The position numbers and the translations under genes were made by a program. Positions 43,047 through 57,973 of a stretch of 64,000 bases of DNA are shown piece by piece (position 1 is the first letter of the stretch; every line of letters begins with the position of its first letter). The DNA lies in NCBI GenBank assembly GCA_963828395.1, contig CAWHED010000010.1:2355-66354 (forward strand), in the 5' to 3' direction. This DNA comes from an uncultured Bacteroidales bacterium (GTDB lineage: Bacteria; Bacteroidota; Bacteroidia; Bacteroidales; VadinHA17). The notes under the pieces were generated by a model. The model did no database searches. It saw only the letters and a list, made by a program, of their open reading frames with translations, and was not told the DNA's origin.

Positions 43047-43790
43047 CTAGAGCACTATCCTTACTACTATTGAATCTGCAATCTGCAACGCTGTTGTCAG
43101 AGTGCTGAGGTCTGTGAACAGCTCCCCCGTTTGTCCCAAAGGATGACTATGGCCTATTGGCCGCATGATGTACTTGTCACGCAGATTTTTCTGATCTGCC
43201 ATGCTCTCGTAGACAACCGCGGGTTGTGCTGAATACAGGTAGTTTTTGTCCCCCGGATATTTGTCATTAGTCCAGTAATCGTTCCAGTCCCAGTTTTGGT
43301 TTATCTCAAACATTACCCTGAACTTTGCAGGCAAGGGTCCGTCAGCGCGGGTAGCAAGTGTGAAACTGGTTGTAGGTGTGGCACCGCTGTATGCATCGGC
43401 AACAGGATTCTCCGGTTCAGGCATATAAAGTCCGTCAGAAGCTACTATACCTCTCTTGTGCGACCAGTAAGGCAGAGTCTGCGGAGCCCTTTTTGCTGCT
43501 TCAACCCATTTCCCCGAAATATCGGACCCGTATTTAAAGATGCCTGTTGCAATAGTTTTGGGCACGAACAGGGTCTGTAAATAACTACCCCGCTCATCCT
43601 CAAGCCATACGGCCATAAGCGGATAATAAAGGGACCTACCCCCGTAAAACTTCACTTCAATTGCTGGGCCGGTACCGGCAGTGTTAGTCCGTACTTCAGT
43701 AACCTTCTGCCTCTCAGTAATTTTTGACGCGGAGGGCTTTGCCGAGCATGCGGCAAGAAACACCATTAAAGCTATTATGATATATTTCAT
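43047..43790 (-). CDS. uncharacterised lipoprotein, co-oriented downstream of the TonB-dependent receptor
   Basis: Lipobox 'VFLAAC'; 247 aa. 'MAVWLEDERGSYLQTLFV' resembles DUF2271-type proteins, but I make that assignment from memory only. Confidence 0.55.
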   Translation of the reverse strand: MKYIIIALMVFLAACSAKPSASKITERQKVTEVRTNTAGTGPAIEVKFYGGRSLYYPLMAVWLEDERGSYLQTLFVPKTIATGIFKYGSDISGKWVEAAKRAPQTLPYWSHKRGIVASDGLYMPEPENPVADAYSGATPTTSFTLATRADGPLPAKFRVMFEINQNWDWNDYWTNDKYPGDKNYLYSAQPAVVYESMADQKNLRDKYIMRPIGHSHPLGQTGELFTDLSTLTTALQIADSIVVRIVL

Positions 43791-43801
43791 CTCTATCTCT
43801 T

Positions 43802-46198
43802 TTAAATTTCAATAATGATACCGACAGTTGGTAAAATGGTTCCAATGTCTGACTGAACATACTTGAGAAGGTAACGGCTTGAATCTTCAGGGTCGATCAG
43901 CGGCACACCAGCTTCATCTGTCTGCCGGATAAGCAGAGCGGGCTGTTCAGCCTTGAAGTTCAGAATGTTTTGTACGTCAGCATACAGCATCAGTGACCAT
44001 TTCTTAAAATAGAACTGCTTGTCAACCCTCAGATCAAGCTGGTTAAAAGCTGACAGCCTTTCAGTGTTGTACCTTGTGTAATCGAGGTAGCCCTGACCGG
44101 TGGCATCCCACGCTTCAATAAGCGATGATTTCTCAACATCATACGGCGTATAAGGCGCTCCTCCGACATACCTCCATTTGAACCCTAAATTCAAGGTTTC
44201 TCCAAGGTTCTTCGTTGCCGTCAGGCTTAAGAGATGCCTGTTATCCCACGCCGTGGGAATGTAATTACCGTCAGTGCCTTTAAACTCGCTCCTGACAAAA
44301 GTATATGAAAACACTGCATTCAGACCCTTCAGTTCCCTCACGCGGCCCATGAGCTCAAGGCCGTAAGCCCTGCCCGTCGAAGTGGAGACAAGCTCCTCAT
44401 CACCGAAGATCCCGTAACCGGCGCTCCTGGTAGACAATGGAACCTGATCCGCTACTGAGAATGGATAGTCATTATAGCGCTTGTAAAAACTTTCCACGGT
44501 AAACTGCAGGCTTTCTTCCGGGATAACCTCAATGCCTGCAACAATATGATCGGCATATATGTATTTGATCCCGTTTTCCTTATTGGTATAATTGCCTGAA
44601 TTGTCTTTCAGTCCGAGTGACGTATATGGCGGAAGCTGATAATAGCGCCCGGTGTTGAAATTCAGGTTGATTATGTCTGTAAGTGAATATGACACTGAAA
44701 ACCGGGGCGAAACCTGGGTAAAAGGATTTGACATTTCAGGCGAGTAACTGTTGCCGTCAGTGCGAAGCCCGATAGAAAGACTTAGCTTTTCATCAATGAA
44801 CGACCTGCTTACCTGGCCGAAGGCCGAGTACTTGAAAAAGACAAGGTTGGTGTTGTATATATCGGTTTTTAATCCGGTGTCAGTGTAGACCTTCCTGAAG
44901 GTGTCATTCCTGTAGCGCGACATCTCAGTACCGGCACCGTAGCTGATCCTGAATGTGCTGGGGTAAATCACGGTTCCCTCATACCTCAGCCTGATGTCAC
45001 CCTCTCCGCTGTTATAATCAAGGGTCTTGTTATTGGGATCTGACTCATCATTGTTAAGGTATTTGTATTGAGTGTTGTTCAGATAGTTGCGGCTTAAGAC
45101 CACAATGTCTGAACCATTTGAACGGAAGTGCCTGTAAACAGCACCCACGGTATAGCTGTACTGTTCCTGTGTCGGTATATAACTCAGGATATACCGCTGG
45201 TATTCTGTCTCATTCGCCTCAAGGTTCAGTTTGAAATCGTCCCTGGCACCCAGACCGAGTATTGTCAGCTCATTCTTCTGGTCAAAGTTGATCTTGTATT
45301 TGAACTGAAAATCGGTGTAGGTAGGGAGGAATGGGAGACCCAGCGCTCCGAACAGAAACTGCAGGTATGACCGCCGGGCAGAAACAATGATGGAGCTCTT
45401 CTCTCCTGCCGGCCCGTTATAGGTGAGACCAACATCTGAAGCACCAAGTGTTGCCCTGATCGTTTTCTTCTCTTTGTTACCGTCGATCAGGCTGAAGTTC
45501 ATGACTGAACTGAGGGCATTGCCTCTTGATGCCGGAAATGCGCCGGATAGAAAGTCAACTGATCTGACGAAATCGACATTAATTATGCCTACCGGTCCTC
45601 CCGAAGCCCCCTGGGTCGAGAAGTGGTTGAGATAAGGTATCTCCACATAATCCAGGAAGAATCTGTTTTCATTGGGCCCTCCTCCCCTGACGATAACATC
45701 ATTCCTGAACGCAGGCGTTGAGGCAACTCCCGGAAATGACTGAATAACCTTTGAGATGTCACGGTTACCACCCGGGTTCAGTTCAATCTCCTGAATGCCT
45801 ATGATCCTCACCGATACCGGACTCTCGATTTTTTTGCGGAAAGGCGATGCCTTGACAACAATATCGGAAATGCTCACAACAGTTGATTCGAGAGGGATTG
45901 TCAGGTTAACCTCGTTATTGTTGGTCACCATCACACCTTCAGTAATGTAAGGTTTGTAACCCACATATGAGACCCTCACTTCCACAAATCCGGGTTTCAG
46001 TCCGGTGAAAAGGAAATTACCGTCAAAATCGGTCATGGCACCTGTGGTGGTGTTCCATATCACAATGCTGGCAAACGGAATCGGCTCGTTGGTAGTTGCA
46101 TCCACTACCTTGCCTCGGATCGTCCCTCCGCCCGCTTGCCCGGAAAGATCCGCAAACACCATAGTAAACAGTAGTAATATTATATAATAAGTCTTCAT
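43802..46198 (-). CDS. TonB-dependent receptor with an N-terminal carboxypeptidase-regulatory-like domain
   Basis: 'GTIRGKVVDATTNEPIPFASIVI...GYKP' CarbopepD_reg fold, then plug and beta-barrel, ending in an aromatic-rich C-terminus. The likely ATG is at 46198. Confidence 0.9.
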   Translation of the reverse strand: MKTYYIILLLFTMVFADLSGQAGGGTIRGKVVDATTNEPIPFASIVIWNTTTGAMTDFDGNFLFTGLKPGFVEVRVSYVGYKPYITEGVMVTNNNEVNLTIPLESTVVSISDIVVKASPFRKKIESPVSVRIIGIQEIELNPGGNRDISKVIQSFPGVASTPAFRNDVIVRGGGPNENRFFLDYVEIPYLNHFSTQGASGGPVGIINVDFVRSVDFLSGAFPASRGNALSSVMNFSLIDGNKEKKTIRATLGASDVGLTYNGPAGEKSSIIVSARRSYLQFLFGALGLPFLPTYTDFQFKYKINFDQKNELTILGLGARDDFKLNLEANETEYQRYILSYIPTQEQYSYTVGAVYRHFRSNGSDIVVLSRNYLNNTQYKYLNNDESDPNNKTLDYNSGEGDIRLRYEGTVIYPSTFRISYGAGTEMSRYRNDTFRKVYTDTGLKTDIYNTNLVFFKYSAFGQVSRSFIDEKLSLSIGLRTDGNSYSPEMSNPFTQVSPRFSVSYSLTDIINLNFNTGRYYQLPPYTSLGLKDNSGNYTNKENGIKYIYADHIVAGIEVIPEESLQFTVESFYKRYNDYPFSVADQVPLSTRSAGYGIFGDEELVSTSTGRAYGLELMGRVRELKGLNAVFSYTFVRSEFKGTDGNYIPTAWDNRHLLSLTATKNLGETLNLGFKWRYVGGAPYTPYDVEKSSLIEAWDATGQGYLDYTRYNTERLSAFNQLDLRVDKQFYFKKWSLMLYADVQNILNFKAEQPALLIRQTDEAGVPLIDPEDSSRYLLKYVQSDIGTILPTVGIIIEI

Positions 46199-46266
46199 TA
46201 TTTGTGTAGTTTTTATGAAACAAACCACCAAACGGGCTAAAAAGTTCAGCAGATATGAAAACTTTA

Positions 46267-47244
46267 TTATAACAGCTCCCTGAAATATGTCTCCTCAGCA
46301 GCGAGATCAATGAATGGCGCTTTCGCCCTCAGCTCGTTGATCCTGTCGAGCATGGCAGCGGCAAAGGGAGCCGTTTCCCGCTTATCTCCCGTGATGCGGT
46401 GAGACTTAGCCCTGGTGATCCTTGCAGCCTCATTCCACAGGCGAAGGGCAGGACTGTCAATAAAGACCGAAGAAAATTTTTCCCATATATAATCGATGGC
46501 CGTCTCTGACGGATGAACCATATCGGCAGCATAATACCTGTAATCGCGAAGATCATCCATGAATAGCTCGTAGGCCGGGAAGTACCCCCCCACAGATGGA
46601 TGGCTCAGCAGCTCCTCAGCTGCCAGAAGAAGATGCGCCTTGCTTATCTGGTTTGCATGTGCACCGTCACCCAGGTGGCGGACAGGACTGACGGTGAACC
46701 AGACCCTCAGCGCGGGGTTGAGTTCCTCAAGACGGTCAAGCGTCTCCCTCCACCGGGCAGCGATCTCATGCGAGGCAGCCAGCCTGCGCCCGAAAAGCGA
46801 CGAGGGCAGCTTATGACAGTTGGCCACTATGGCTCCGCTCTCCCTGAGGCTGTAAACGTAGGATGTGCCGAAAGTCACAAAGAGGAATGAGGCTCTTCGG
46901 ATGAATTCAGACGCTACCCGGCTGACATTGTTGAGCCTTTCAATAAGAACATCCCGCTCATACGATGAAAAGGCAGTATGATGATCAAGGCTCATGTAAC
47001 GGTTCCGGTAGAGGTACACATCCATTTCAGTGTACTGGTGTGATGCTGCAAACCTGTCAAGGGCTCCTGCCACCGAAAAAGGATTGAAGAGCGTGCCGTG
47101 CGGGTTGGTCATCACATCGAGCTTCCCTGATGCCAGCCTGTACCCGATCTCGTTGGCAAAGCACGAACCCAGGAACATGACCGGCGTACTGAAGGTGATC
47201 TTGCCGGGTGAGACAGGAAGGGGTACCTCGGTTCGCAGTTCCAT
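46267..47244 (-). CDS. GSCFA-family protein
   Basis: Contains the eponymous 'FLGSCFANEIG' motif near the N-terminus; 325 aa. Confidence 0.85.
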   Translation of the reverse strand: MELRTEVPLPVSPGKITFSTPVMFLGSCFANEIGYRLASGKLDVMTNPHGTLFNPFSVAGALDRFAASHQYTEMDVYLYRNRYMSLDHHTAFSSYERDVLIERLNNVSRVASEFIRRASFLFVTFGTSYVYSLRESGAIVANCHKLPSSLFGRRLAASHEIAARWRETLDRLEELNPALRVWFTVSPVRHLGDGAHANQISKAHLLLAAEELLSHPSVGGYFPAYELFMDDLRDYRYYAADMVHPSETAIDYIWEKFSSVFIDSPALRLWNEAARITRAKSHRITGDKRETAPFAAAMLDRINELRAKAPFIDLAAEETYFRELL

Positions 47245-47252
47245 TTCACATA

Positions 47253-48065
47253 TTATAATAATGTGTCAATCCACTCGATGATGAACTCAAAGTGCTCCTC
47301 CCTGAGCAGATCATTATGGAGCTCATGATACCCTCCGTCCCATAGCTTCAGCGTCGCTCCGGGCGCTGCAGCAGCAACCTCCATCGTAGCTGCCGCCGAA
47401 GTGATCATGTCGTTCCTTCCGTGTACTAACAGCACCGGCAGGGTGATCTCAGAAGCACGACTAAGTACTTCTTTTGCGGCACTGGTTATCGATCTGAATA
47501 TTCCTCCTGAGATCATGCCATGAACGAGTGGATCGTTCCTGTAAGCCTCGATCACCAGGGGGTCACGTGACAGATCCTCTGTCTTTAATCCTGAAGACTG
47601 GGTCATCCCGGGCATGATCCTGCCCGCCACAGAGGCCAGCAATTGCTTGACCTTCGGAGGTTCAAATGCCAGCCTGATCCATGGTGAGGTTGCAATGGCG
47701 CCTGCCAGGGAAGGTTTCCTACGGATAAGATAGTCAAGTACGATGCCACCGCCCATACTGTGACCGTAAATTAACTGCGGGATACCTGGCAGCTCTGCAG
47801 CAATATCTTTAAGAATTATATCAATCGTTTCAAATAAAACATCAAATGGCGGCATCACCCCGCGCCTGCCATCGGACTGGCCGTGACCCGGAAGGTCAAA
47901 AGCCCTCAGCGAGACCCCCTTTTCATTGAACTTAGCCGCCCAATCCCTGTATCTGCCTGAATGCTCTCCAAAACCGTGAACAAGAAGTATGACCGCTTTC
48001 GGCGTACCGGCAGTATCAAATTTATACGTTGCTGTTTTTCCGCAAGGATATTCTTTTATCTCCAT
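47253..48065 (-). CDS. alpha/beta hydrolase (lysophospholipase/monoglyceride-lipase-like)
   Basis: 'LLVHGFGEHSGRY', nucleophile elbow 'GHSMGG', 270 aa. Confidence 0.85.
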   Translation of the reverse strand: MEIKEYPCGKTATYKFDTAGTPKAVILLVHGFGEHSGRYRDWAAKFNEKGVSLRAFDLPGHGQSDGRRGVMPPFDVLFETIDIILKDIAAELPGIPQLIYGHSMGGGIVLDYLIRRKPSLAGAIATSPWIRLAFEPPKVKQLLASVAGRIMPGMTQSSGLKTEDLSRDPLVIEAYRNDPLVHGMISGGIFRSITSAAKEVLSRASEITLPVLLVHGRNDMITSAAATMEVAAAAPGATLKLWDGGYHELHNDLLREEHFEFIIEWIDTLL

Positions 48066-48353
48066 AAGATCTTTTTTGTAAAGATAAATAAAAGATGCAT
48101 GAAGTCTCTATTCCGTTATTTCATGGCATCCAGCGACAAAACAGGCCCGGACAACGGAGTCACTTGGTAGTAAAAAAATACTTGCGTATCCTAATTTATA
48201 CAAGCGTCGACTAATAATCTCAATTTCAATTATATCCTGTTTAGAATCCCTGCTCAGAACTCATTCAAAACATATAATTAAGGATATTCGGATTTGTTTA
48301 TCTTAATTTGTTCGTTTAACTTTGTATCAACAAACAAGTAAAAATGCTGAGAA

Positions 48354-48860
48354 ATGACTGCAAATGAATTCACATCAAGCATAATAGGTCTGAAGGGAAA
48401 TCTTCAGAAGTACGCTCTCAGTCTTACATTCGACCGTGACAACGCACTTGACCTCGTTCAGGATACATTCCTGAAAGCTATACAGAACCAGGATAAGTTT
48501 GTGGATGCCACGAACCTCAAGGCCTGGATCTTCACAATAATGAAAAACACTTTCATTAATAATTACCGCAGGAAGATGAGGGAGAATACAATGATGGACG
48601 GCACGCAGGAGCTTTATTATATCAATCTTCCTTCTGACAAGGGAAGCATTTCACCCGACTCATCTTATTCAGAGAATGAGATCGAGAAAGCCATTGAGGC
48701 CCTGCATGACGATTACCGTCAACCGTTCCGCATGCATCTTAACGGATATAAATATGAAGAGATCTCAGAGAGGCTCAATCTCAAGCTTGGAACGGTAAAG
48801 AGCCGCATCTTTTTCGCACGTCAGAAGCTGATGAGCATTCTCAGGGATTATAATGGTTAG
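48354..48860 (+). CDS. ECF-type RNA polymerase sigma-70 family factor
   Basis: Region 2 'DLVQDTFLKA...AWIFTIMKNTFINNYRR' and region 4 'YEEISERLNLKLGTVKSRIFFARQKL'. Confidence 0.9.
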   Translation: MTANEFTSSIIGLKGNLQKYALSLTFDRDNALDLVQDTFLKAIQNQDKFVDATNLKAWIFTIMKNTFINNYRRKMRENTMMDGTQELYYINLPSDKGSISPDSSYSENEIEKAIEALHDDYRQPFRMHLNGYKYEEISERLNLKLGTVKSRIFFARQKLMSILRDYNG

Positions 48861-48996
48861 GTTTGAGTTTTAGGTTTATAATAAGGGAGGATCTCCGTGA
48901 GGTTCTCCCTGTTTTTATATATTAATACTGGCAGGCTTTTTGCCGATTTTCCGGGGTAATCTTCTTTTTGAATACCTTTATAAAAAAATAACAGAA

Positions 48997-50607
48997 ATGA
49001 AAAAAATCTTATTTGCAGCACTTTTGGCCCTGACATTTTCGGCATTCACGGCTGAAGGCCAGGAGAAGTATATCGCATCTGCCGTCAGCCAGGTCACTGT
49101 CTTCCGGCAGGGCGCACAGTTATACGGTGAACTGCCTTTTTCGGTACAGCCTGGCACCGTCGATATAGTTGCAGGAGGCCTTTCTCCGTACATTGACCCC
49201 AACAGCATACAGGTAAAAGGTGAGGGTGATTTCATGATCATGGGTGTAAACCACAGGAATAACTACCTCGAGAATCCAGCAGAGACAGAGGCAATTACCG
49301 TACTGAGAGAAAAGATTGAGGCACTTACTGTGAAGATTGAGAACGAACAGACTGCCGTTGATGTGCTTCTTGAGAAAGAGCTTTTTCTTAAATCGAATTA
49401 TGACGTTGTTACCAACAAATCTACCATTACTCCCGACCAGCTTAAAGTGTTAATGGATCTTTACTCGTCAAATATTGAATCTGTTAAAATGGCTGTCCTC
49501 AAAAAAAGCAGGGTAATAAAGGAATACGATGAAGAGAAGAAGAAGCTTGAGAGCCAGCTGGCAGCCACGGTCGACAAGTCGAAACTGCCTACAGGCGAGA
49601 TAGTCGTGACCGTCACCGCCACCAAAGCCGTTAGCGGCAAGCTTAAACTTTCGTATGTGGTGATGAATGCGGGCTGGTACCCGGCTTATGATATCCGTGT
49701 CGATGACATCTCATCTCCGGCATCAATAATTTACCGGGCAAATATCTGGCAGAACAGCGGTATCGACTGGAAGGATGTGAAAGTGAGCCTGTCGAATGCC
49801 TCTCCTATGACTGCCGGTGCATTGCCAACCCTGAATCCCTGGTTCGTTGACTTCTATCAGCCTTATATCTACGAACTTAATGAAGTCGTTGTCGCCAGAG
49901 GTGTAAAATCCAAACCCGCAGCCCGTGATGCCAAAGCTGAAGATGCCATGATTATGGAGCAAGAGAGTGCTCCCCTCCCCGTCACTGTCAGTGAATCAAC
50001 CATCAGCTTCAGCTTCGACGTAAATGTACCACAGACCATCCTGTCAGACGGCAAGCCGGAAGTGGTTGAACTGCAGCGACTGACAGTTCCTGCAACATAC
50101 AGCTATGCAGCCACACCCAAGCTTGCTACGTCAGCCTATCTCATAGGATACATAACAGAATGGGACAAGTATAATCTTCTTCCGGGCGAATCAAATATAT
50201 ATTTCAGCAACACCTTTACCGGTAAAGGCTATATCAACACTGCAGAACTGACTGATACCCTTCCCGTATCACTCGGGGCTGACAACAATATTACAATCAA
50301 GCGTGAGAAAAGAAAGGATTTCGCATCACAGAAGCTGATTGGCGCCAACAGGGTTGAGACAATGTCCTTCCTTATTTCGGTACGGAACAACAAGAGTCAG
50401 GTCGCTGCCGTTAAGCTCCGTGATCAGATACCCTTGTCGCAGAACAGTGACATTATCGTTGAGGCTGTTGAACTTACCGGCGGAACCCTCAACCGGGTCA
50501 CCGGAGAGATCGTCTGGGACCTTAAGGTCGAGCCCCGCCAGACAAAGGAGATTATTCTCACGTACAGCGTGAAGCACCCCAAAGACAAGAAGGTGATACT
50601 TGAATAA
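48997..50607 (+). CDS. DUF4139/DUF4140 (MuiA-like) secreted protein
   Basis: Signal peptide 'MKKILFAALLALTFSAFTAEG', a central coiled coil and a long beta-rich C-terminal part, typical of the mucoidy-inhibitor-A-like family. The likely ATG is at 48997. Confidence 0.75.
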   Translation: MKKILFAALLALTFSAFTAEGQEKYIASAVSQVTVFRQGAQLYGELPFSVQPGTVDIVAGGLSPYIDPNSIQVKGEGDFMIMGVNHRNNYLENPAETEAITVLREKIEALTVKIENEQTAVDVLLEKELFLKSNYDVVTNKSTITPDQLKVLMDLYSSNIESVKMAVLKKSRVIKEYDEEKKKLESQLAATVDKSKLPTGEIVVTVTATKAVSGKLKLSYVVMNAGWYPAYDIRVDDISSPASIIYRANIWQNSGIDWKDVKVSLSNASPMTAGALPTLNPWFVDFYQPYIYELNEVVVARGVKSKPAARDAKAEDAMIMEQESAPLPVTVSESTISFSFDVNVPQTILSDGKPEVVELQRLTVPATYSYAATPKLATSAYLIGYITEWDKYNLLPGESNIYFSNTFTGKGYINTAELTDTLPVSLGADNNITIKREKRKDFASQKLIGANRVETMSFLISVRNNKSQVAAVKLRDQIPLSQNSDIIVEAVELTGGTLNRVTGEIVWDLKVEPRQTKEIILTYSVKHPKDKKVILE

Positions 50608-50631
50608 CAGTCACTTACTCAGTACAAACAT

Positions 50632-50670
50632 GCGAGGTTATTAACTCGTGTTAATAACCTCGCTTTATTA
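50632..50670 (+). terminator. intrinsic terminator after the DUF4139 gene
   Basis: A perfect 14-bp stem, GCGAGGTTATTAAC-TCGT-GTTAATAACCTCGC, is followed by TTTATTA. Confidence 0.8.
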
Positions 50671-50761
50671 TGACTAAATACCTGATTGACAATACCTATC
50701 TATTGTTAATAAATCTGTGAATTTCCTGTTCTTTCTATTATGGCATTATTAGCACAGAATA

Positions 50762-50793
50762 TTTGGAATGGGATGGACCTCTTCCTATATTTG
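50762..50793 (+). promoter_or_regulatory. candidate Bacteroidota sigma-A promoter (-33 TTTG / -7 TAnnTTTG)
   Basis: TTTG at 50762-50765, a 20-nt spacer, then TATATTTG at 50786-50793. No protein gene follows on this strand. Confidence 0.4.
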
Positions 50794-50796
50794 TCA

Positions 50797-51397
50797 GACC
50801 ATGTGAGCGATAAAGGGTCGCTCTGAGGTTAGAAGGTTCTTTCAAATGGTTTAATTATCACTCTGAAATTACATCAGACTTCAGGGTCTCACGCTGAAAG
50901 ATCACGGTCTTTGAGCGTCCGTCACGGGTGCAGGCTGAGAGGCCTTCCCATCCTGGCGGTCTGACGGGGGCAATCTTCAAACGGTGTAACAATCGTGCGA
51001 TGAGAGCAACACAAACGCAGGCTGAAAGCTAATAAAGCAGCGCAAGTGCCCGCTTAGAGAAAGGAACATCATGCCATCCAAACCGGCGAGGATCGGATGG
51101 AGATGGTCCGGGCAGGACAGCAGCTATCCCTTCGGGGAGTGTCCGGTCTCAGGGGTTCATGGCTCCGTGTTCCAGTATGCGCTTCGTAAAAACCGCAAGG
51201 TGATGAAAAAGTACAGAAATAACACCGGAACAAAGTCCGCACTCAGCCTCACGGCCGGGACCGACAGACTTCGGAAAGGCAGGAGCAAGAGAGATGAACC
51301 GGCTGTAATAACAGTAACATGGCGCAAGTGACGGTCATGGCCGTTACTCGTCGGAATGGGAACATATACGTAAGTATGGTTCCCATTCGTGTTTTAT
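50797..51397 (+). ncRNA. candidate large (~600 nt) structured RNA, family unassigned
   Basis: ORF-poor and GC-rich relative to other spacers. It is bracketed by the promoter above and a plus-oriented terminator hairpin (51354-51388 plus GTGTTTTATA). It contains multiple GC helices with UUCG/GNRA-type loops. See the findings. Confidence 0.4.
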
Positions 51398-51419
51398 ACC
51401 CCTGCCATAAAAAAAGGGC

Positions 51420-52202
51420 TTAACGCCCCCTTGTGACTCCTCTTTCAGAAGTCCTGAAAAAATTAATTATGAGATCTCTTTCATCAGTCGGCGGAAAGGT
51501 CTCTTCAAGATACTTAAGAGACTGAGTCCGATTCTTCCCCGTATTGTAAATAACTCTGTATATCTCATGTATCTCGGTTATCTTCTCCTTGCTGAAACCC
51601 CTGCGCTCAAGCCCCACCGAATTGATTCCCATGAAAGAAAGCGGGCTCCTGCCTGCCCTGACGTATGGCGGGATATCCATGACTGCAATTGACCCCCCTG
51701 CCATCATCGAATGTGCCCCTATTCGCACAAACTGATGGGCCCCGCTGCCTCCTCCGATAATAGCCCAGTCATCAACCCTCACTTCACCTCCAAGCATTGT
51801 CTGAACAACCATGATCACATTGTTGCCTATGATACAGTCGTGTGCTACATGTGCATAAGCCATGAACAGGCAATTGTTCCCGATGACCGTCTTCCCTTTC
51901 GCAGCTGTACCCCTGTTAAGTGTTGCAAATTCTCTTACAGTGGTGTTATCACCAATTTCAATTGTGGTCTTTTCTCCGCGGAACTTAAGGTCCTGCGGTA
52001 TTGATGAGACCGAGGCCCCGTTAAAAATACGACAGTTGCTTCCTATACGTGCACCGTCATATATAACGGCGTTGGATCCTATCCAGGTGTTGTCGCCGAT
52101 AATGACATCACCGGCAATGGAAGCGAAAGGCTCAACAGTTACATTTGCACCCAGCTGTGCCTTCGGATCAACATTTGCCAAAGAGGAAATCAAATTCATC
52201 AC
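51420..52202 (-). CDS. lpxA: acyl-ACP--UDP-N-acetylglucosamine O-acyltransferase
   Basis: 260 aa; left-handed beta-helix hexapeptide repeats and 'RGFSKEKITEI' in the C-terminal helical domain. It follows lpxC/fabZ with a 4-nt overlap. Confidence 0.95.
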   Translation of the reverse strand: MMNLISSLANVDPKAQLGANVTVEPFASIAGDVIIGDNTWIGSNAVIYDGARIGSNCRIFNGASVSSIPQDLKFRGEKTTIEIGDNTTVREFATLNRGTAAKGKTVIGNNCLFMAYAHVAHDCIIGNNVIMVVQTMLGGEVRVDDWAIIGGGSGAHQFVRIGAHSMMAGGSIAVMDIPPYVRAGRSPLSFMGINSVGLERRGFSKEKITEIHEIYRVIYNTGKNRTQSLKYLEETFPPTDERDLIINFFRTSERGVTRGR

Positions 52203-53593
52203 TTATTTTTTATAACCTGTGCAGTCAGTTCACCTTCAGCGACAATTTTTTCGCCCACAAAAGCCTGGGCGTACATGGTAACCATGTTTCTGCGTATAGG
52301 TTCATTCATGTCACACCTGAGTACAAGAATATCTCCCGGCACAACCTTATTCCTGAACTTGAGCCTGTCAATTTTTACAAAATAGGTCGAATATTTCTCC
52401 GGTTCCTCCACATTGTTCAGAACAAGTATGCCGCCGGCCTGCGCCATTGCTTCAACAACCAGAACCCCCGGGAAGATATGTTCATCAGGGAAATGGCCCT
52501 GGAAAAAGGCTTCGTTGTAGGTAACATTCTTGATACCGATAACATGATTTAATGTCAGTTCCAGGATGCGGTCAACCAGCAGGAAGGGAAAACGGTGAGG
52601 GAGAAGTCTTTTCACCTGCTCAATGTCCATCACTGCCGGCTTCGTAGTATCAAGCAGTGGTATCTCCTTCTTTGTCGTCTGCCTCTTAATCTCCTGGCGG
52701 ATCAGCCTGGCAAGCCTGGTGTTTGAATAATGGCCCGGGCGTGTGGCAACAACCTTGCCTTTAATGGGCTGACCTACCAGCGCCAGGTCACCGATCAGGT
52801 CAAGCAGCTTATGCCTGGCAGGCTCATTGGGGTGCCTGAGTTTCGTGTTGTTGAGAACACCTTCATGATGTTCAGTGAAGGCTGGTTTTTTAAAAAGCCT
52901 GGCTATGCGGTCTATCTCACCCTGTTCCACTTCCTTTTCCAGTAGCACGACAGCATTGTCAAGGTCTCCGCCCTTGATCATCCCTTTCAAAAATAATGGC
53001 TCCAGCTCATGAAAGAAAACAAAGGTGCGGTTTGAGCTGATCTCCTTCTCAAAATCGCTGATGTTATCAAGGATGGCGTACTGGTTTCCGAGGATCTTGG
53101 AATTATAGTCGATCAGCACATGAGCGCTGAAATGATCATCAGGATAAACAATCAGGTCAACACCGTGCTCTTCATCGGAAAAGGTGATTTTCTCCCTTAT
53201 AACGTAATAGTTACGGTCTTCCTTCAGCTCTTTGATTCCCGCTTCTTTTATGGCTTCAACAAACATGTGTGAGCTGCCATTCATGATAGGCGCCTCCTGA
53301 GCATTTATCTCAAAAAAAGCATTGTCAACCCGCATCCCTGAAAAAGCTGCCAGAACATGCTCTATTGTCGACACTGAAGCCACACCCTGCACCAGGGTGG
53401 TGCCTCGTGATGTCTCTGTCACATTGTCAGCTATGGCATCTATAATTGGTCTACCGGGCAGATCAGTACGGCAAAACTTATAGCCGCTGTTTGCAGGTGC
53501 CGGTTTGAAAGTTATTGTGACATCAACTCCTGTATGCAACCCCTTGCCCCGGAGACTGATCTCGTTAGACAGGGTTGTCTGCTTTTCACTCAT
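52199..53593 (-). CDS. lpxC/fabZ: bifunctional UDP-3-O-acyl-GlcNAc deacetylase / 3-hydroxyacyl-ACP dehydratase
   Basis: 464 aa. The N-terminal LpxC part has 'GKGLHTG...TIEHVLAA...HKLLDLIGDL'. The C-terminal FabZ hot-dog part has 'LPHRFPFLLVD...FFQGHFP...PGVL'. Confidence 0.95.
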   Translation of the reverse strand: MSEKQTTLSNEISLRGKGLHTGVDVTITFKPAPANSGYKFCRTDLPGRPIIDAIADNVTETSRGTTLVQGVASVSTIEHVLAAFSGMRVDNAFFEINAQEAPIMNGSSHMFVEAIKEAGIKELKEDRNYYVIREKITFSDEEHGVDLIVYPDDHFSAHVLIDYNSKILGNQYAILDNISDFEKEISSNRTFVFFHELEPLFLKGMIKGGDLDNAVVLLEKEVEQGEIDRIARLFKKPAFTEHHEGVLNNTKLRHPNEPARHKLLDLIGDLALVGQPIKGKVVATRPGHYSNTRLARLIRQEIKRQTTKKEIPLLDTTKPAVMDIEQVKRLLPHRFPFLLVDRILELTLNHVIGIKNVTYNEAFFQGHFPDEHIFPGVLVVEAMAQAGGILVLNNVEEPEKYSTYFVKIDRLKFRNKVVPGDILVLRCDMNEPIRRNMVTMYAQAFVGEKIVAEGELTAQVIKNK

Positions 53594-53706
53594 CGATAAC
53601 TTTTTAGAAAACGGTACAAATAAAATGAAAATTTTCCGAATGCTCCAAATGAAAAGAATATACCTGTATGAGATTCAAACGATTTACTTTGGAACGCCTT
53701 GGAAAA

Positions 53707-54744
53707 CTACTTGTTTTTCAGGGAATCAACTGTTTTTATCAGGTCGTCCAGTTTGTTATTCATTTCAGGAAGCCTGATGAAGCAGATAAAGCTTCGCATA
53801 TACTTCTTGCTGTCAATAGCCGGTGAGCCCAGGAGAGTGACGTTCTCCTCCTTAATGTTTCCGGCTATCCCGGATTGAGCAGCAATCTTGCATCCGTCAG
53901 CAATACTTAAATGGCCCGCTAACCCTACCTGCCCTCCCATCATGCAGTTCTTTCCCACTTTTGTTGAACCTGCAATGCCCGACTGCGCTGCCATGACTGT
54001 GTTTTCACCTACCACCACATTATGCCCGATCTGTACCAGGTTATCAAGCTTGGCGCCCCTCTGTACCACAGTAGATCCCATGGTAGCCCTGTCAATGCAG
54101 GTGTTTGCTCCTATCTCCACATCGTCTTCCAGTATGACGTTTCCGATCTGCTGGATTTTCATATAATCCTTTCCGCCAGCCGGCGCAAAACCGAAACCGT
54201 CAGCGCCTATCACCGCGCCGGCATGCACTATACAGTTATTGCCTATTATACACTCTTTATAAATTTTCACGCCGGCGTACAGTGTGCAGTTGCTGCCTAT
54301 TTTCACATTGTCTCCGATGAAGACATGCGGATAAAGGCTGCAGCCGTCACCTATTGCAACATTCTCTGATATCACGGCATAAGCTCCGATATAAATATCG
54401 CTTCCCACCCTTGCATTCTCCTCGATTACTGCCGTAGGGTGTATCCCCTTTTTCACCGGCTTTGCCTGCTCGTACATTGCAAGCAGGCGTGCCAGGGCCT
54501 GATAAGGATCGTCCACCCTGACCATTGTCGCTTTTACGCTGCCGGCAGGTTTGAAATCCAATCCTACAAGCACAATTGATGAATCAGTCGTATAAATATA
54601 GTGTTCGTACTTTGGATTAGCCAGGAATGAAATGGCACCTTTGTGTCCTTCTTCAATCTTGGCGAAAGTATTAACCGTTATTTCCGGATCCCCTTCTACT
54701 GTTCCGTTCAGCGCCAGGGCTATCATTTTGGCCGTGAATTCCAT
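53707..54744 (-). CDS. lpxD: UDP-3-O-(3-hydroxymyristoyl)glucosamine N-acyltransferase
   Basis: 345 aa; N-terminal 'ISFLANPKY' followed by long hexapeptide repeats. Confidence 0.95.
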
Positions 54745-54755
54745 TTAAGTATATT

Positions 54756-55991
54756 TTATTTCGATAATATTTCTTTCGGGTAACAGAGGAAGTACTTCGT
54801 CACTTTCTCTGAAAGCGCATCTTTGTCAAAAAGATCGGATACGGCAGTAATATCTTTTATCGTACCATTCTTAAGGCGGATGCGTACCTCCGGTGTACCG
54901 GGTGCATAGGTCTGGTTATAAACGTCTCCGGTGTTGACGTAAAACCTTACCTCGTCATCCCGGAGACGCAGGATATCTTTTGCCTTTTTTGCCAGTTCAG
55001 TCACCACTTTTTCGTCAAATGGACTGTTTTGCAGTTCAATACCCAGAAGGTCCCTGGTTATAAAGCGCCGGCATAAGTCGGCAAGCACTTTGTCGTCTGA
55101 GGTCATCCACACCTTCGTCGAGGCCATTATATCACTCTCATCAAGCTCCAGAAACCGGCTGGTCATTTCGGTTGTATTCTCACCGCTGCCGGGACGGTGA
55201 CGCTGTTGAAGGAAATAGGCCAGGGCGGGTGTGGCAAAGAGTGTGGTTCCCCCGGCTGTCACTTCACGCGCCCTTATCAGGAGGTCTGTAAGCAGGTTCT
55301 CAGCAGACACGACAGTACGGTGGTTATATACCTGCCAGTACATCATCCGCCTGGCTATCAGAAACTTTTCAACAGAGTAAATGCCTTTCTCATCCACCAC
55401 CAGGCGATCATCAGCCACATTAAGCATCCTGATAATCCTGTCAGACCCTACCGACCCTTCAATGACCCCGGTAAAGAAACTGTCGCGCCTGAGATAATCC
55501 ATACGGTCCATATCCATCTGTCCCGTCACAAGATCATGAAAAAATTTCTTCGGATAGGTGCCGTTGAAGACAGCAATGGCGTCTGTAAGCCTGCCATCAA
55601 ACTGACTGTTAAGCTCCTCCATGATCAAAAGTGACATCATCTCGTGAGGCATATCCTCTATCAGAGAGTGTTCAAGCGCATGTGAGAACGGTCCGTGCCC
55701 TATGTCATGCAAAAGTATGGCTGCCAGCACTGCCTCCTCCTCTTCCTGTGTAATATCAATATTCTTTGTCCGAAGAGTGTGTACCGCCTGTGTGGTCAGA
55801 TACATGGCTCCCAGGCTGTGCTGAAAGCGGCTGTGTACCGCACCCGGATATACATAACTGGAAAGCCCCAGCTGCCTTATGTTTCTCAGCCGCTGAAACC
55901 ACGGGTGGCTCACAAGGTCAAAAATGAGATCACTGGGCATAGAGATAAATCCATATACCGGATCGTTGATGATCTTGTTCTTGTTAGTCAA
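54756..55991 (-). CDS. HD-domain phosphohydrolase (dNTPase-like)
   Basis: 'RFQHSLGAMYL' and 'LLHDIGHGPFSH'; 411 aa. The position upstream of lpxD is conserved in Bacteroidota. Confidence 0.85.
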   Translation of the reverse strand: MTNKNKIINDPVYGFISMPSDLIFDLVSHPWFQRLRNIRQLGLSSYVYPGAVHSRFQHSLGAMYLTTQAVHTLRTKNIDITQEEEEAVLAAILLHDIGHGPFSHALEHSLIEDMPHEMMSLLIMEELNSQFDGRLTDAIAVFNGTYPKKFFHDLVTGQMDMDRMDYLRRDSFFTGVIEGSVGSDRIIRMLNVADDRLVVDEKGIYSVEKFLIARRMMYWQVYNHRTVVSAENLLTDLLIRAREVTAGGTTLFATPALAYFLQQRHRPGSGENTTEMTSRFLELDESDIMASTKVWMTSDDKVLADLCRRFITRDLLGIELQNSPFDEKVVTELAKKAKDILRLRDDEVRFYVNTGDVYNQTYAPGTPEVRIRLKNGTIKDITAVSDLFDKDALSEKVTKYFLCYPKEILSK

Positions 55992-56091
55992 ATGCCGCTG
56001 ATTTAATTTTTAAAATAATTACCTGTCCTCAAAATTACTTCAGAAAACCTTTACATACAAAGCAATTGTTGAATATTCGCACCCTGCTGCA

Positions 56092-56121
56092 TTTGTTATT
56101 TAAAAAATGATGTTATCTTTG
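56092..56121 (+). promoter_or_regulatory. candidate promoter of the rimP-nusA-infB operon
   Basis: TTTG at 56092-56095, an 18-nt spacer, then TATCTTTG at 56114-56121. Confidence 0.35.
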
Positions 56122-56150
56122 CACCGGAATAGAAGGGGGTACGACTGGCC

Positions 56151-56177
56151 TAGGGGACAAAAGTCCCCTATTTTGTT
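56151..56177 (+). terminator. terminator-like hairpin inside the rimP leader (possible attenuator)
   Basis: TAGGGGAC-AAAA-GTCCCCTA is followed by TTTTGTT and ends 15 nt before the rimP ATG. There is no U-run in the opposite orientation. Confidence 0.55.
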
Positions 56178-56192
56178 ATCAAAAAACAGACT

Positions 56193-56648
56193 ATGATTAC
56201 AAAAGACCATATAAGGAAGCTTGCAGAGAGCCACATCAGTGGCACCGGGATCTTTCTGGTTGATGTAAGGCTGAGCAGCACCGGCAGGATCACTGTCCTC
56301 ATCGACAGGAATGAGGGGGTGACCATTGACGATTGCGCTTCGATGAGCAGATTTATCAGAAATGAGCTGGGAGAAGCCGTTGGAGATTATGAACTTAATG
56401 TCTCTTCACCGGGACTTGAAATGCCTTTTCTTGTGATTGAGCAATACCGCAAGAACGAGGGTCGCCTGGTCGAGGTTATTTCAAATGACGGCTCCCTTGA
56501 GAAGGGTACGCTCATGAATATTACCCATGGCGGCTTTGACCTGAGAGTTGACACAAAAGAGAAGAAGAAAAAGGAAGTCACCTCAGTGATCAGATCGTTT
56601 AACTATGAGGATGTTAAGTCAGTTAAAGTAATAATATCATTCAAATAA
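56193..56648 (+). CDS. rimP: ribosome maturation factor RimP
   Basis: 151 aa; 'ELNVSSPGLEMPF' motif. It lies immediately upstream of nusA. Confidence 0.9.
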   Translation: MITKDHIRKLAESHISGTGIFLVDVRLSSTGRITVLIDRNEGVTIDDCASMSRFIRNELGEAVGDYELNVSSPGLEMPFLVIEQYRKNEGRLVEVISNDGSLEKGTLMNITHGGFDLRVDTKEKKKKEVTSVIRSFNYEDVKSVKVIISFK

Positions 56649-56665
56649 CAGAATTCATTACCACA

Positions 56666-57910
56666 ATGGAAAACGTCAATTTAATCGATACCTTTTCAGA
56701 ATTCAAGGAGCTGAAGAATATAGACAGGCCCACCATGATGAGTGTGCTCGAGGATGTATTCAGGGGTATGCTCGCCAAAAAATACGGTGCGGCAGAAAAC
56801 TTTGACATTATTGTCAACATCGATAAGGGTGACTTTGAGATCTGGCGAAACCGCGAGGTTGTTGACGATGAGGCATTCACCGATCCCAATACCCAGATAC
56901 CCCTTTCAGAAGCTCATAAGATAGATGAGGACTATGAGGTTGGAGAAGAGGTCTCTGATGAGGTCAAATTCCTGGACTTCGGCCGCAGGGCTATCCTGGC
57001 CCTCAGACAGAACCTTGTTGCGCGTATCCTTGACCTGGAAAAAAACAATATATATCTCAAATATAAAGACCGTATCGGAGATATCGTCACCGGCGAGGTG
57101 TACCAGGTATGGAAACGTGAAACCCTGGTCCTTGATGATGACGGCAACGAGCTGATCCTTCCGAAAGGAGAACAGATCCCCTCCGATCACTTTCGCAAGG
57201 GTGATACCATCCGCGCTGTAGTCATCAGGGTAGAGATGAAGAATAATACTCCCAACATCATTCTCAGCCGTACATCACCCGTCTTCCTTGAAAGACTATT
57301 CGAACTGGAGGTGCCGGAGATATTTGACGGACTGATCACCATCAGAAAGATCGTAAGGGTACCCGGCGAGAGAGCCAAGGTGGCAGTTGAATCCTATGAT
57401 GAGCGCATTGACCCTGTCGGAGCATGCGTGGGCATGAAAGGATCAAGGATACACGGTATCGTACGCGAGCTGCGCAATGAGAACATTGATGTCATAAACT
57501 TCACTTCAAACAATCAACTGTTCATCACCAGGGCACTCAACCCCGCAAAAATATCCTCGATCAAACTTATCGAATCAGAAAAGAAAGCAGAGATATACCT
57601 TAAACCCAGTGAGGTCTCCCTGGCCATTGGCAAGGGCGGGCTGAACATCAAGCTGGCAGGACAGCTTACCGGGTATGATATAGAGGTGTATCGCGAACCG
57701 GATAATGAGGATGAGGAAGACGTCTCTCTGGATGAATTTGCAGATGAGATTGAAGGATGGGTCATTGATGCCCTGAAAGCCATCGGTTGCGACACTGCCC
57801 GTAGCGTGCTCAGGCTGACTGTACACGACCTTGCCAAGAGAACAGACCTTGAAGAGGAAACAATAAAGGAGGTTGTGAATATCCTCAAGGCGGAATTAGA
57901 TAAAGAATAA
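56666..57910 (+). CDS. nusA: transcription termination/antitermination factor NusA
   Basis: S1 domain 'GDIVTGEVYQV' and KH domains 'DPVGACVGMKGSRI' and 'LAIGKGGLNIKLA'. Confidence 0.97.
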   Translation: MENVNLIDTFSEFKELKNIDRPTMMSVLEDVFRGMLAKKYGAAENFDIIVNIDKGDFEIWRNREVVDDEAFTDPNTQIPLSEAHKIDEDYEVGEEVSDEVKFLDFGRRAILALRQNLVARILDLEKNNIYLKYKDRIGDIVTGEVYQVWKRETLVLDDDGNELILPKGEQIPSDHFRKGDTIRAVVIRVEMKNNTPNIILSRTSPVFLERLFELEVPEIFDGLITIRKIVRVPGERAKVAVESYDERIDPVGACVGMKGSRIHGIVRELRNENIDVINFTSNNQLFITRALNPAKISSIKLIESEKKAEIYLKPSEVSLAIGKGGLNIKLAGQLTGYDIEVYREPDNEDEEDVSLDEFADEIEGWVIDALKAIGCDTARSVLRLTVHDLAKRTDLEEETIKEVVNILKAELDKE

Positions 57911-57973
57911 TCTTCTCCCGTAAAAAGAAGAAAAGACTGAATACTTATTTAAGAGGTTACTATAAAGGGATTT

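What the first reader, a model, noticed from the sequence alone, without database searches (positions are those of the whole stretch)
50762..51400. ORF-free, GC-rich unit of about 600 nt with its own promoter and terminator: candidate large structured RNA of unknown class
About 750 nt lie between the terminator of the DUF4139 gene (50632-50670) and the lpxA stop (51420). The six-frame track finds only one ORF of 60 aa or more in this stretch (51071-51331). That ORF is strongly basic, has no hydrophobic core and does not look protein-like.

The stretch is nevertheless not AT-rich spacer. Hand counts give 36/60 G+C at 51121-51180, versus 19/60 in the ordinary spacer line 48181-48240.

It is bracketed by two signals. 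Upstream is a Bacteroidota-type promoter: TTTG at 50762-50765, a 20-nt spacer, then TATATTTG at 50786-50793. Downstream is a hairpin oriented for the plus strand only: GAATGGGAAC/GTTCCCATTC at 51354-51388, with an inner ATAC-GTAA-GTAT tip, followed by GTGTTTTATA.

The interior is full of short GC helices with stable loops:
- GAGCGA/TCGCTC (50805-50823)
- ACGCTgAAAGA/TCTTTgAGCGT (50891-50918)
- CCGTCA/TGACGG (50919-50967)
- CCATCC/GGATGG (51074-51100)
- GGAC..TCCC-TTCG-GGGA..GTCC (51115-51144)
- AGTAAC..GGC/GCC-GTTACT (51313-51348)

I could not match it to RNase P, tmRNA, SRP, 6S or group II intron signatures.
Basis: partly seen in the sequence, partly recalled or inferred. Interest (0 to 1): 0.72.

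Follow-up and report, generated by a model that had tools for sequence, protein, structure and literature searches.

The report
New large structured RNA in Bacteroidales
A 595-base gene between two ordinary protein genes makes an extremely abundant, intricately folded RNA that matches no catalogued RNA family, so it appears to be a new class of large bacterial non-coding RNA whose function is still unknown.

Summary
Window 50798-51392 (+) is an independent transcription unit. It has a Bacteroidota promoter (TTG 50763-50765, TATATTTG 50786-50793) and a hairpin plus U-tract terminator (51354-51395).

- **Expression:** in public metatranscriptomes this stretch has summed contig depth of 1e5-1e6, against 10 or less for every other gene in 20 kb around it.
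- **Transcript ends:** the first RNA contig starts at 50798. One contig ends at 51392 followed by a poly(A) tail.
- **Homologues:** I recovered 31 full-length homologues (68-98% identity) from Bacteroidales MAGs and metagenomes. All lie in the same position: ECF sigma, DUF4139, RNA, then lpxA.
- **Conservation:** the promoter boxes are invariant, and the RNA is better conserved than the neighbouring coding DNA.
- **Structure:** the consensus fold has 139 pairs and 98.3% of cells are paired. Compensatory changes occur in 35 pairs, against 14.2±2.2 in shuffles and 5-11 in slid controls.
- **Not coding:** the 86-aa ORF is broken in 28 of 31 sequences and substitutions show no 3-nt periodicity.
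- **Not a known family:** Rfam 15 gives no match, even at E≤10. ARAGORN finds no tmRNA. Seven literature searches found no description.

It is a new large, ornate non-coding RNA. Function is inferred only; most likely it is the core of a stable ribonucleoprotein or RNA assembly.

The parts
50763..50765 (+). -33 promoter element (T)TTG
   Evidence: Invariant T14 T15 G16 in the 31-sequence alignment A2, while flanking spacer bases vary. It lies 20 nt upstream of the -7 box.
50786..50793 (+). -7 promoter box TAnnTTTG (TATATTTG), Bacteroidota type
   Evidence: T37 A38 T41-G44 are invariant in A2. One search also flags TTGGAA-17-TATATT here. The assignment to the Bacteroidota promoter consensus rests on my own knowledge of that consensus.
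50798..51392 (+). Mature transcript, 595 nt: large structured non-coding RNA
   Evidence: Sequence conservation starts at 50798. There is no RNA contig upstream of 50796; the first starts at 50798 and carries a snap-back loose end. An X27 contig ends at 51392 followed by A16. Depth is 1e5-1e6 here versus 10 or less elsewhere in 41100-61000.
50799..50804 (+). 5' strand of the closing helix (CCAUGU), pairs with 51317-51322
   Evidence: RNAalifold helix 1. It is 100% paired in 31 sequences, with U-G changing to U-A at one pair.
50805..50959 (+). 5' domain: six hairpins (helices 2-9), including the near-invariant block CACGGGUGCAGGCUGAGARGCCUUCCCAUCCUG with a GAGA loop
   Evidence: Helices 6, 7 and 8 carry compensatory changes. 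A 25-nt pattern from this block retrieved 45 metagenome contigs.
50850..50859 (+). Conserved hairpin loop UUUAAUUAUC containing the 6-nt palindrome UAAUUA
   Evidence: Invariant in 28 of 31 sequences; three have UAACUA. A kissing-loop role is speculation.
50961..51057 (+). Central multi-branch domain (helices 10-17)
   Evidence: Compensatory changes occur in helices 10, 11, 13, 14, 15, 16 and 17. For example, pair 268/295 is UA:19 CG:9 AU:3.
51063..51109 (+). Long hairpin (GGAACAUC/GAUGGUCC, then CCAUCC/GGAUGG) capped by a 15-nt loop holding the conserved CCGGCGAGG(A) motif (about 51082-51091)
   Evidence: Helix 18 has three covarying pairs. In the loop, CGGCGAGG is invariant; the flanking A, C and A are at least 90% conserved.
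51110..51149 (+). Hairpin with UUCG-type loop (helices 20 and 21)
   Evidence: Seven pairs carry compensatory changes. For example, pair 369/398 is GC:13 UG:8 UA:7 AU:3.
51154..51300 (+). 3' multi-branch domain. Contains helices 22-24, a GCAA-capped hairpin (51183-51207), helix AGUC/GACU (51234-51237 with 51267-51270) and a variable hairpin (51242-51259)
   Evidence: Helices 22 and 23 covary. The GCAA hairpin, helix B and the variable hairpin are read from the realigned sub-region and per-sequence folds. My column-wise count for them failed on register, so these three are inspection-level only.
51317..51322 (+). 3' strand of the closing helix (ACAUGG)
51323..51353 (+). Penultimate hairpin (CGCA/GUCG and GACGGU-CAUG-GCCGUU)
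   Evidence: Helices 26 and 27. Pair 582/609 is GC:14 AU:8, but 9 cells are unpaired.
51354..51395 (+). Intrinsic terminator: 14-pair hairpin GAAUGGGAAC..GUUCCCAUUC, then GUGUUUU
   Evidence: Helix 28 is almost invariant. The RNA 3' end at 51392 lies within the U tract. The scan did not list it.
51071..51331 (+). Chance ORF of 86 aa, not a gene
   Evidence: No Pfam match. It is interrupted by stops or frameshifts in 28 of 31 homologues and shows no codon periodicity.

Best explanation
Window 50798-51392 (+) is the gene for a previously uncatalogued, about 595-nt, highly structured non-coding RNA. It is inherited vertically in one lineage of environmental Bacteroidales.

**Shown:**
- It has its own conserved Bacteroidota promoter and its own intrinsic terminator.
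- The RNA accumulates to levels orders of magnitude above all neighbouring genes, with sharp ends at about 50798 and 51392.
- Its fold has roughly 28-30 helices: a long-range 5'/3' closing helix, four internal domains, many GNRA/UNCG-type loops, and then two 3' hairpins. The fold is maintained by compensatory substitutions.
- It does not code for protein.
- It matches no Rfam family.

**Inferred:**
- It acts in trans, not as a leader or UTR. lpxA is convergent and DUF4139 has its own terminator.
- Long loop and junction sequences are invariant (for example CGGCGAGG, UUUAAUUAUCA and the 33-nt GGGUGCAGGCUGAGA..CCCAUCCUG block), and the RNA is extremely abundant and stable. From this I infer that it most likely serves as the structural core of a stable complex. 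I favour a ribonucleoprotein in the manner of OLE RNA or RNase P (about 35%). An RNA-only homo-oligomer like ROOL or GOLLD comes next (about 20%).
- The biochemical function itself is not established by anything I could run.

The confidence given (0.85) is for the identity claim: a real, new, trans-acting large structured ncRNA gene. It does not apply to the mechanism.
For: **Transcription unit**
- The promoter boxes are invariant in 31 homologues and conservation begins at 50798.
- RNA contigs cover 50798-51392 only.
- An A16 tail follows 51392 on the plus strand.
- Depth is 1e5-1e6 versus 10 or less across 41100-61000.
- The RNA is present in 14 runs labelled metatranscriptomic (12 rated RNA, 2 'RNA?') from soil, sediment, estuary, lake, ice and freshwater, some with only 21-46 million letters.

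**Structure**
- The consensus has 139 pairs, and 98.3% of cells are paired.
- Thirty-five pairs have double changes, against 14.2±2.2 in shuffles (0 of 500 reach it) and 5-11 when partners are slid.

**Strand**
- There are 482 G-U cells. Pairing is 98.3% on the plus strand and 87.5% on the minus strand.

**Non-coding**
-.

**Not a known family**
- Rfam. ARAGORN. Literature.

**Conservation**
- RNA identity to the window is 81-98%. In the same loci the DUF4139 gene is 70-89% and lpxA is 66-95% at the DNA level.

**Synteny**
- The order is fixed in every one of the 30 loci wherever the flank is present, and in further lineages reached through DUF4139 homologues.
Against: - No strand-specific raw reads were available. 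All RNA runs are held as contigs, whose summed word depth is a rough and inflated measure of abundance.
- Libraries are rRNA-depleted or virome-style, which favours stable structured RNAs.
- All homologues come from one family-level clade (DUF4139 at 59% aa identity or more). Many covarying cells therefore reflect few evolutionary events, and the fixed synteny says nothing about function.
- The region 51181-51280 is only roughly modelled.
- No protein partner, oligomer or activity has been shown. The mechanism is an analogy.
Confidence: 0.85

Rival explanations
1. RNA-only homo-oligomeric assembly. The RNA self-associates into a symmetric multimer, as ROOL, GOLLD and OLE do in cryo-EM, through conserved self-complementary loops.
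For: The size, the ornate fold and the abundance resemble those RNAs (PMC12286853 for the precedent). Two conserved loops contain palindromes: UAAUUA at 50852-50857 and CCGG at 51082-51085.
Against: The UAAUUA palindrome is broken (UAACUA) in 3 of 31 homologues without compensation. A 4-nt CCGG is weak evidence. No Rfam match to ROOL, GOLLD or OLE. Nothing here tests oligomerisation.
Confidence: 0.2
2. Regulatory decoy: an abundant RNA that titrates a protein (in the style of 6S or CsrB) or an RNA.
For: Very high abundance and an independent promoter.
Against: There are no repeated short binding motifs and no 6S-like rod with a central bubble. A 595-nt multi-domain fold with invariant junctions is much more than a decoy needs. 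No 6S or CsrB hit in Rfam.
Confidence: 0.12
3. Ribozyme: the fold forms an active site for a reaction not yet assigned.
For: Sequence conservation in junctions and loops exceeds that of neighbouring protein genes, as in RNase P and group I/II introns.
Against: There is no similarity to any catalytic RNA model. There are no exon-like flanks. The recurrent junction positions in chimeric contigs are explained more simply by library artefacts.
Confidence: 0.08
4. Divergent copy of a known housekeeping RNA (RNase P RNA, tmRNA, SRP RNA or 6S) that Rfam models fail to recognise.
For: A 5'/3' closing helix is present. Short strings recall RNase P conserved regions: GAUGGUCCGGGC, AGAUGAACCGGCU and GAGAGCAAC (the resemblance rests on my recollection of the E. 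coli M1 sequence).
Against: cmscan at E<=10 gives no RNase P, tmRNA, SRP or 6S hit on the window or on four homologues. ARAGORN finds no tmRNA. The look-alike strings sit in other covarying helices (18, 20 and 22), only about 190 nt apart rather than spanning the molecule. Matches of 8 nt between sequences of about 600 and 380 nt are expected by chance.
Confidence: 0.03
5. Cis-acting or by-product RNA: a 3' UTR of the DUF4139 gene, an antisense regulator of lpxA, or a decayed pseudogene.
For: It sits directly downstream of DUF4139 on the same strand and converges on lpxA.
Against: A terminator follows DUF4139. A conserved promoter lies between them. RNA depth is zero over 50500-50795 and beyond 51402. 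There is no overlap with lpxA. In the divergent lineages an AIRS-domain gene separates the RNA from lpxA. No coding signal.
Confidence: 0.03
6. Mobile or viral sequence, for example related to ssRNA phages, because three Leviviricetes records contain pieces of it.
For: blastn hits at the extreme 5' ends of NC_073766.1, NC_074146.1 and BK014139.1.
Against: Each record carries a different fragment of the RNA. NC_073766.1 even includes 13 nt of the DNA promoter (TTATATTTGTCC) upstream of the RNA start. The RNA is chromosomal with fixed synteny in all DNA contigs. Many JGI contigs show the same kind of fusion to unrelated sequences on either side. There are no plasmid hits. These are assembly or library chimeras with a hyper-abundant RNA.
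Confidence: 0.02

Closest known systems
OLE RNA (Rfam RF01071)
   Same: About 600 nt, ornate multi-domain fold with long invariant stretches, own promoter, among the most abundant transcripts of its host, found in anaerobes, function long unknown, works as a ribonucleoprotein (PMC12054373, PMC9723947).
   Different: No covariance-model match. The host is Bacteroidales rather than Bacillota. The neighbours are an ECF sigma factor, DUF4139 and lpxA, not oapA/oapB/oapC. The helix layout is unrelated.
ROOL and GOLLD RNAs
   Same: Large (about 580 and 800 nt), highly structured bacterial RNAs of unknown function, first noticed in metagenomes and abundant in metatranscriptomes. They form RNA-only multimers (PMC5737381, PMC12286853).
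   Different: No model match. ROOL and GOLLD are often in prophages or next to tRNAs, whereas this RNA sits at a fixed chromosomal position with housekeeping genes. Multimerisation is untested.
Bacterial RNase P RNA (type A)
   Same: A 5'/3' closing helix, a multi-domain fold, sequence conservation in junctions, and high stability and abundance.
   Different: About 200 nt longer, with two extra 3' hairpins after the closing helix. No P4-type long-range pseudoknot was detected. No Rfam RF00010/RF00011 match even at E<=10.
Bacteroidales-specific Rfam motifs (Bacteroidales-1, Bacteroides-1/-2, 6S-Flavo)
   Same: Same phylum. They were discovered by the same logic of GC-rich, conserved intergenic regions.
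   Different: All are much shorter, and none matches.

Membership tests
Large ornate bacterial ncRNAs (operational category: OLE, GOLLD, ROOL, etc.) | Transcript longer than about 400 nt that does not code for protein | tested here: met
   595 nt. The ORF is broken in 28 of 31 homologues and there is no codon periodicity.
Large ornate bacterial ncRNAs (operational category: OLE, GOLLD, ROOL, etc.) | Many conserved helices supported by covariation | tested here: met
   28 helices and 139 pairs, 35 of them with compensatory changes; both controls are exceeded.
Large ornate bacterial ncRNAs (operational category: OLE, GOLLD, ROOL, etc.) | Independent, abundant transcript | tested here: met
   Conserved promoter and terminator. 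Depth is 1e5-1e6 versus 10 or less for neighbours.
OLE RNA (RF01071) | Match to the family covariance model | tested here: not met
   No hit at gathering threshold or at E<=10. No hit at E<=1 on four homologues.
OLE RNA (RF01071) | Adjacent oap genes; Bacillota host | tested here: not met
   Neighbours are Sigma70_ECF, DUF4139/DUF4140, LpxA and LpxC-FabZ. The hosts are Bacteroidales MAGs.
ROOL (RF03087) / GOLLD (RF01998) | Match to the family covariance model | tested here: not met
ROOL (RF03087) / GOLLD (RF01998) | Homo-oligomeric RNA-only cage | not testable with these tools
   Needs native gels, SEC-MALS or cryo-EM.
RNase P RNA (RF00010/RF00011) | Match to the covariance model; P4 helix formed by the conserved AGUCCGG / CCGGCU strands | tested here: not met
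   No hit. The look-alike strings are engaged in covarying helices 18, 20 and 22 instead.
tmRNA | tRNA-like domain plus tag reading frame | tested here: not met
   ARAGORN finds only two tRNAs in the window. No Rfam tmRNA hit.
Group II intron / IscB-TnpB guide RNAs (HEARO and others) | Model match and an adjacent intron-encoded protein or nuclease gene | tested here: not met
   No Rfam hit. No such ORF in 48000-54000.

The most novel reading that the evidence does not exclude
This is the founding member of a new class of large functional RNA. It would be the dominant non-ribosomal transcript of a globally distributed, mostly uncultured Bacteroidales lineage. It would either build a defined mega-assembly (RNA-only or RNP) or carry out a catalytic or housekeeping task not performed by any known RNA.
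Probability: 0.3. Interest if true: 0.9.

Novelty: new variant of a known kind. Interest (0 to 1): 0.8.

Why it matters
Only a handful of large structured bacterial RNAs beyond rRNA, RNase P and tmRNA are known (OLE, GOLLD, ROOL, HEARO, raiA and a few others). Each has opened new biology, such as RNA nanocages, RNA-guided nucleases and stress ribonucleoproteins.

This RNA is well suited to follow-up:
- It has precise ends, a strong promoter and a covariation-backed fold.
- It is extraordinarily abundant in soils, sediments, estuaries, lakes and sludge.
- At about 600 nt it is a good size for cryo-EM.

There is also a practical consequence. The RNA is so abundant that it contaminates assemblies. 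At least three public ssRNA-phage records, two of them RefSeq genomes, and many JGI contigs carry pieces of it. Gene callers also place spurious ORFs on it.

Tried and rejected
- **Single-sequence folding does not discriminate.** The z-scores are -2.9 on plus and -2.8 on minus.
- **All-against-all covariation scans were too noisy.** I ran column-pair and stack scans to look for pseudoknots. The three divergent sequences create hundreds of spurious correlated pairs, so no pseudoknot is claimed.
- **A manual pair count failed.** The count on the realigned 51181-51283 sub-region was out of register. The extra helices there rest on inspection only.
- **The protein searches did not reach beyond the clade.** Two searches with DUF4139 list only the best 120 hits, all from the same clade. 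I could not test whether more distant Bacteroidota carry a diverged copy.
- **No full-length covariance model was built.** build_rna_model takes at most 400 columns. An nhmmer profile was used instead.
- **RNase P look-alike strings, a weak C/D-box-like hit (snoR35, E=0.75) and a CCGG/CCGG pseudoknot idea were rejected.** They are either unconserved or incompatible with the covarying helices.
- **The phage or plasmid origin was rejected**.
- **Seven literature searches and one paper check found no description**.

Full report
**1. The observation**

The stretch between the DUF4139 gene (48940-50607, +) and lpxA (51420-52202, -) is as described.
- A terminator-like hairpin follows DUF4139 at 50632-50663.
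- Only one ORF of 60 aa or more lies in the gap, at 51071-51331.
- GC rises from 0.32-0.33 in the spacer to 0.50-0.56 in 50800-51300, with purine excess on the plus strand.
- Pfam confirms the neighbours: Sigma70_ECF, DUF4140+DUF4139, LpxA, LpxC-FabZ. It finds nothing in the 86-aa ORF.

**2. It is transcribed as a discrete, extremely abundant RNA**

The sequence index found the stretch in many soil, sediment, peat and freshwater metagenomes. It also found it in 14 runs labelled metatranscriptomic, 12 rated RNA and 2 'RNA?', some with only 21-46 million letters.

Laying the contigs of these runs on the window gives a clear picture.
- Summed depth is 1e5-1.8e6 over about 50810-51330 in a sediment run (X4) and an estuary run (X25), and zero over both flanking genes.
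- Across 41100-61000, no other bin exceeds about 10.
- At 4-nt resolution nothing lies upstream of 50796. The first contig starts at 50798 with a loose end that is the reverse complement of 50831-50843. That is a snap-back, as expected at an RNA 5' end.
- In X27 a 570-nt contig ends at 51392 and continues with A16, a tail absent from the DNA. This fixes the 3' end inside the U tract and puts the RNA on the plus strand.

Caveat: all RNA runs are held as contigs. Depth is therefore the assembler's word depth summed over overlapping variants, and no mate-strand information exists.

**3. Homologues and context**

- A translated-pattern scan of GTDB genomes gave five Bacteroidales MAGs, one labelled Rikenella sp..
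- A 25-nt DNA pattern from the most conserved block gave 45 metagenome contigs and 2 'viral' contigs.
- blastn shows 30 full-length copies at 98-68% identity.
- Wherever flanks are present, the order is hydrolase, ECF sigma, DUF4139, RNA, lpxA, lpxC-fabZ, lpxD.
- DUF4139 homologues from further lineages led to contigs that again carry the RNA directly downstream: L057 full length, L055 and L059 truncated by contig ends.
- In those lineages and in L048, an AIRS-domain gene lies between the RNA and lpxA.
- The window holds a single copy.
- At the DNA level the RNA is 81-98% identical to the window. In the same loci the DUF4139 gene is 70-89% and lpxA is 66-95%.

**4. Promoter, terminator and ends**

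In the 31-sequence alignment A2, the TTG at 50763-50765 and the TAnnTTTG at 50786-50793 are invariant or nearly so. The 20-nt spacer and the bases just after the box vary freely. Continuous conservation starts at 50798 and ends with GUUCCCAUUCGUGUUUU at 51395. This is the layout of a Bacteroidota sigma-A promoter (my own knowledge of the consensus) followed by an intrinsic terminator.

**5. Structure**

RNAalifold predicts 139 pairs in 28 helices.
- On A2, 98.3% of cells are standard pairs.
- Thirty-five pairs show changes on both sides, covering 134 cells.
- Shuffling partners gives 14.2±2.2 such pairs (0 of 500 reach the observed value). Sliding partners by 1-3 columns gives 5-11 pairs and 37-45% pairing.

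The architecture in window coordinates is:
- a closing helix, CCAUGU 50799-50804 with ACAUGG 51317-51322;
- a 5' domain of hairpins, 50805-50959;
- a central multi-branch domain, 50961-51057;
- a long hairpin, 51063-51109, with a conserved CCGGCGAGG(A) loop motif;
- a UUCG-capped hairpin, 51110-51149;
- a 3' multi-branch domain, 51154-51300;
- outside the closing helix, a hairpin at 51323-51353 and the terminator at 51354-51395.

Realignment and per-sequence folds of 51181-51283 show three more elements with visible compensatory changes. These are a GCAA-capped hairpin, helix AGUC/GACU and a variable hairpin. They were not quantified, because my column count was out of register.

G-U pairs fill 482 cells. 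The same structure read on the minus strand would be only 87.5% paired.

**6. Not coding**

Variable columns fall 55/55/62 on the three codon positions of the ORF (p=0.75) and 112/115/113 over the whole RNA. The ORF-aligned segment is no multiple of three in most homologues. A stop appears by codon 11 in most, and the ATG is lost in four. Only 3 of 31 keep the ORF.

**7. Not a known family**

- cmscan of the whole window at gathering thresholds finds two tRNAs only.
- At E<=10 on 50600-51450 it finds four chance matches (snoR35, rimP, mir-221, IRES_Bip) and none of RNase P, tmRNA, SRP, 6S, OLE, ROOL, GOLLD, HEARO, raiA, group I/II or the Bacteroidales motifs.
- Four homologous loci give nothing at E<=1.
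- ARAGORN finds no tmRNA.
- Short strings reminiscent of RNase P conserved regions lie in other covarying helices and are chance-level (rival 4).
- Seven full-text searches and a check of the 50-genome GC-IGR paper found no description.

**8. What it most likely does**

*Shown:* it is an independent, trans-type transcript. It is convergent with lpxA, separated from DUF4139 by a terminator and a promoter, and shows no read-through. It is very stable and abundant. Selection acts on helices and, even more strictly, on many loops and junctions.

*Inferred:* this pattern is typical of RNAs that form a precise three-dimensional object contacted by proteins or by other RNA, such as rRNA, RNase P and OLE. 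I therefore favour the structural core of a stable RNP (about 35%). Next come an RNA-only homo-oligomer as shown for ROOL, GOLLD and OLE (PMC12286853; about 20%), a titrating regulator (about 12%) and a ribozyme (about 8%).

Conserved palindromic loops (UAAUUA and CCGG) are compatible with self-association, but the evidence is weak.

The fixed neighbourhood cannot be used as a functional clue, because the whole gene order is conserved in this narrow clade. In addition, DUF4139 carries a signal peptide-like N-terminus, which makes it an unlikely cytoplasmic partner.

**9. Side findings**

Because of its abundance the RNA contaminates assemblies.
- Three distinct ssRNA-phage records, two of them RefSeq genomes (NC_073766.1, NC_074146.1) and one GenBank-only record (BK014139.1), start with different fragments of it. 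One includes 13 nt of promoter DNA.
- About twenty JGI contigs fuse fragments of it to unrelated sequences on either side. Some junction positions recur, at about RNA positions 176, 225 and 230.
- Genomic contigs often break inside it.

**10. Verdict**

It is a new family within the known category of large, ornate bacterial non-coding RNAs. Its function is unknown, and its interest for RNA biology is high.

Noticed in passing
L053 (NC_073766.1) 1-241; L054 (NC_074146.1) 1-186; BK014139.1 3-80: Three ssRNA phage (Leviviricetes) records assembled from activated-sludge metatranscriptomes, two of them also in RefSeq, begin with different fragments of this Bacteroidales RNA in plus sense, upstream of the first CDS. 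NC_073766.1 even includes 13 nt of the DNA promoter box. They look like assembly or library chimeras that should be trimmed from the records.
   Followed up: partly
L013, L016, L019, L020, L021, L024, L031, L033, L036-L038, L041, L042, L047, L051, L052: Many JGI/IMG contigs fuse 80-200 nt of the RNA to unrelated sequences, including a flagellin mRNA, a high-GC phage and others. The fusions occur on either side. L020 joins RNA positions 389-488 to 76-195. Some junction positions recur (about 176, 225 and 230). These could be template-switch or cleavage hot spots in the folded RNA.
   Followed up: partly
window 51420-52202 versus L022, L017, L001, L003: Close relatives with 93-98% identical RNA and 87-92% identical DUF4139 protein have lpxA only 66-68% identical at the protein level. 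L040 and L028 keep 95-96%. The lpxA allele therefore switches right next to the RNA gene, suggesting a recombination boundary at or near it.
   Followed up: no
L048 9637-10758; L057 5629-6669: In the divergent lineages a gene of 346-373 aa lies between the RNA and lpxA. It is an AIRS/AIRS_C-domain gene in L057 and in the P0128/P0129 contigs; the Pfam family of the L048 ORF was not checked. The RNA-lpxA adjacency is therefore not obligatory.
   Followed up: partly
L008, L010, L011, L018, L029, L050, L055, L056, L058, L059: Genomic contigs very often end inside or right at the RNA gene, as happens at rRNA operons. This is consistent with near-identical sequence shared by co-occurring strains.
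   Followed up: no
L057 5024-5449 (-); window 51071-51331 (+); L023, L048: Gene callers place hypothetical ORFs of 86-141 aa on either strand of the RNA gene. They have no Pfam family and are not conserved in frame.
   Followed up: partly
window 50964->51189, 51041->51189, 51167->51290: Rare RNA contigs (depth 9-26) skip 122-224 nt inside the RNA. These are probably reverse-transcriptase jumps across helices and not splicing.
   Followed up: no
window 51196-51233: There is a weak C/D-box-like match (snoR35, 16.8 bits, E=0.75) through GUGAUGA...CUGA-like strings. The motif is not conserved in homologues, so it is chance.
   Followed up: yes
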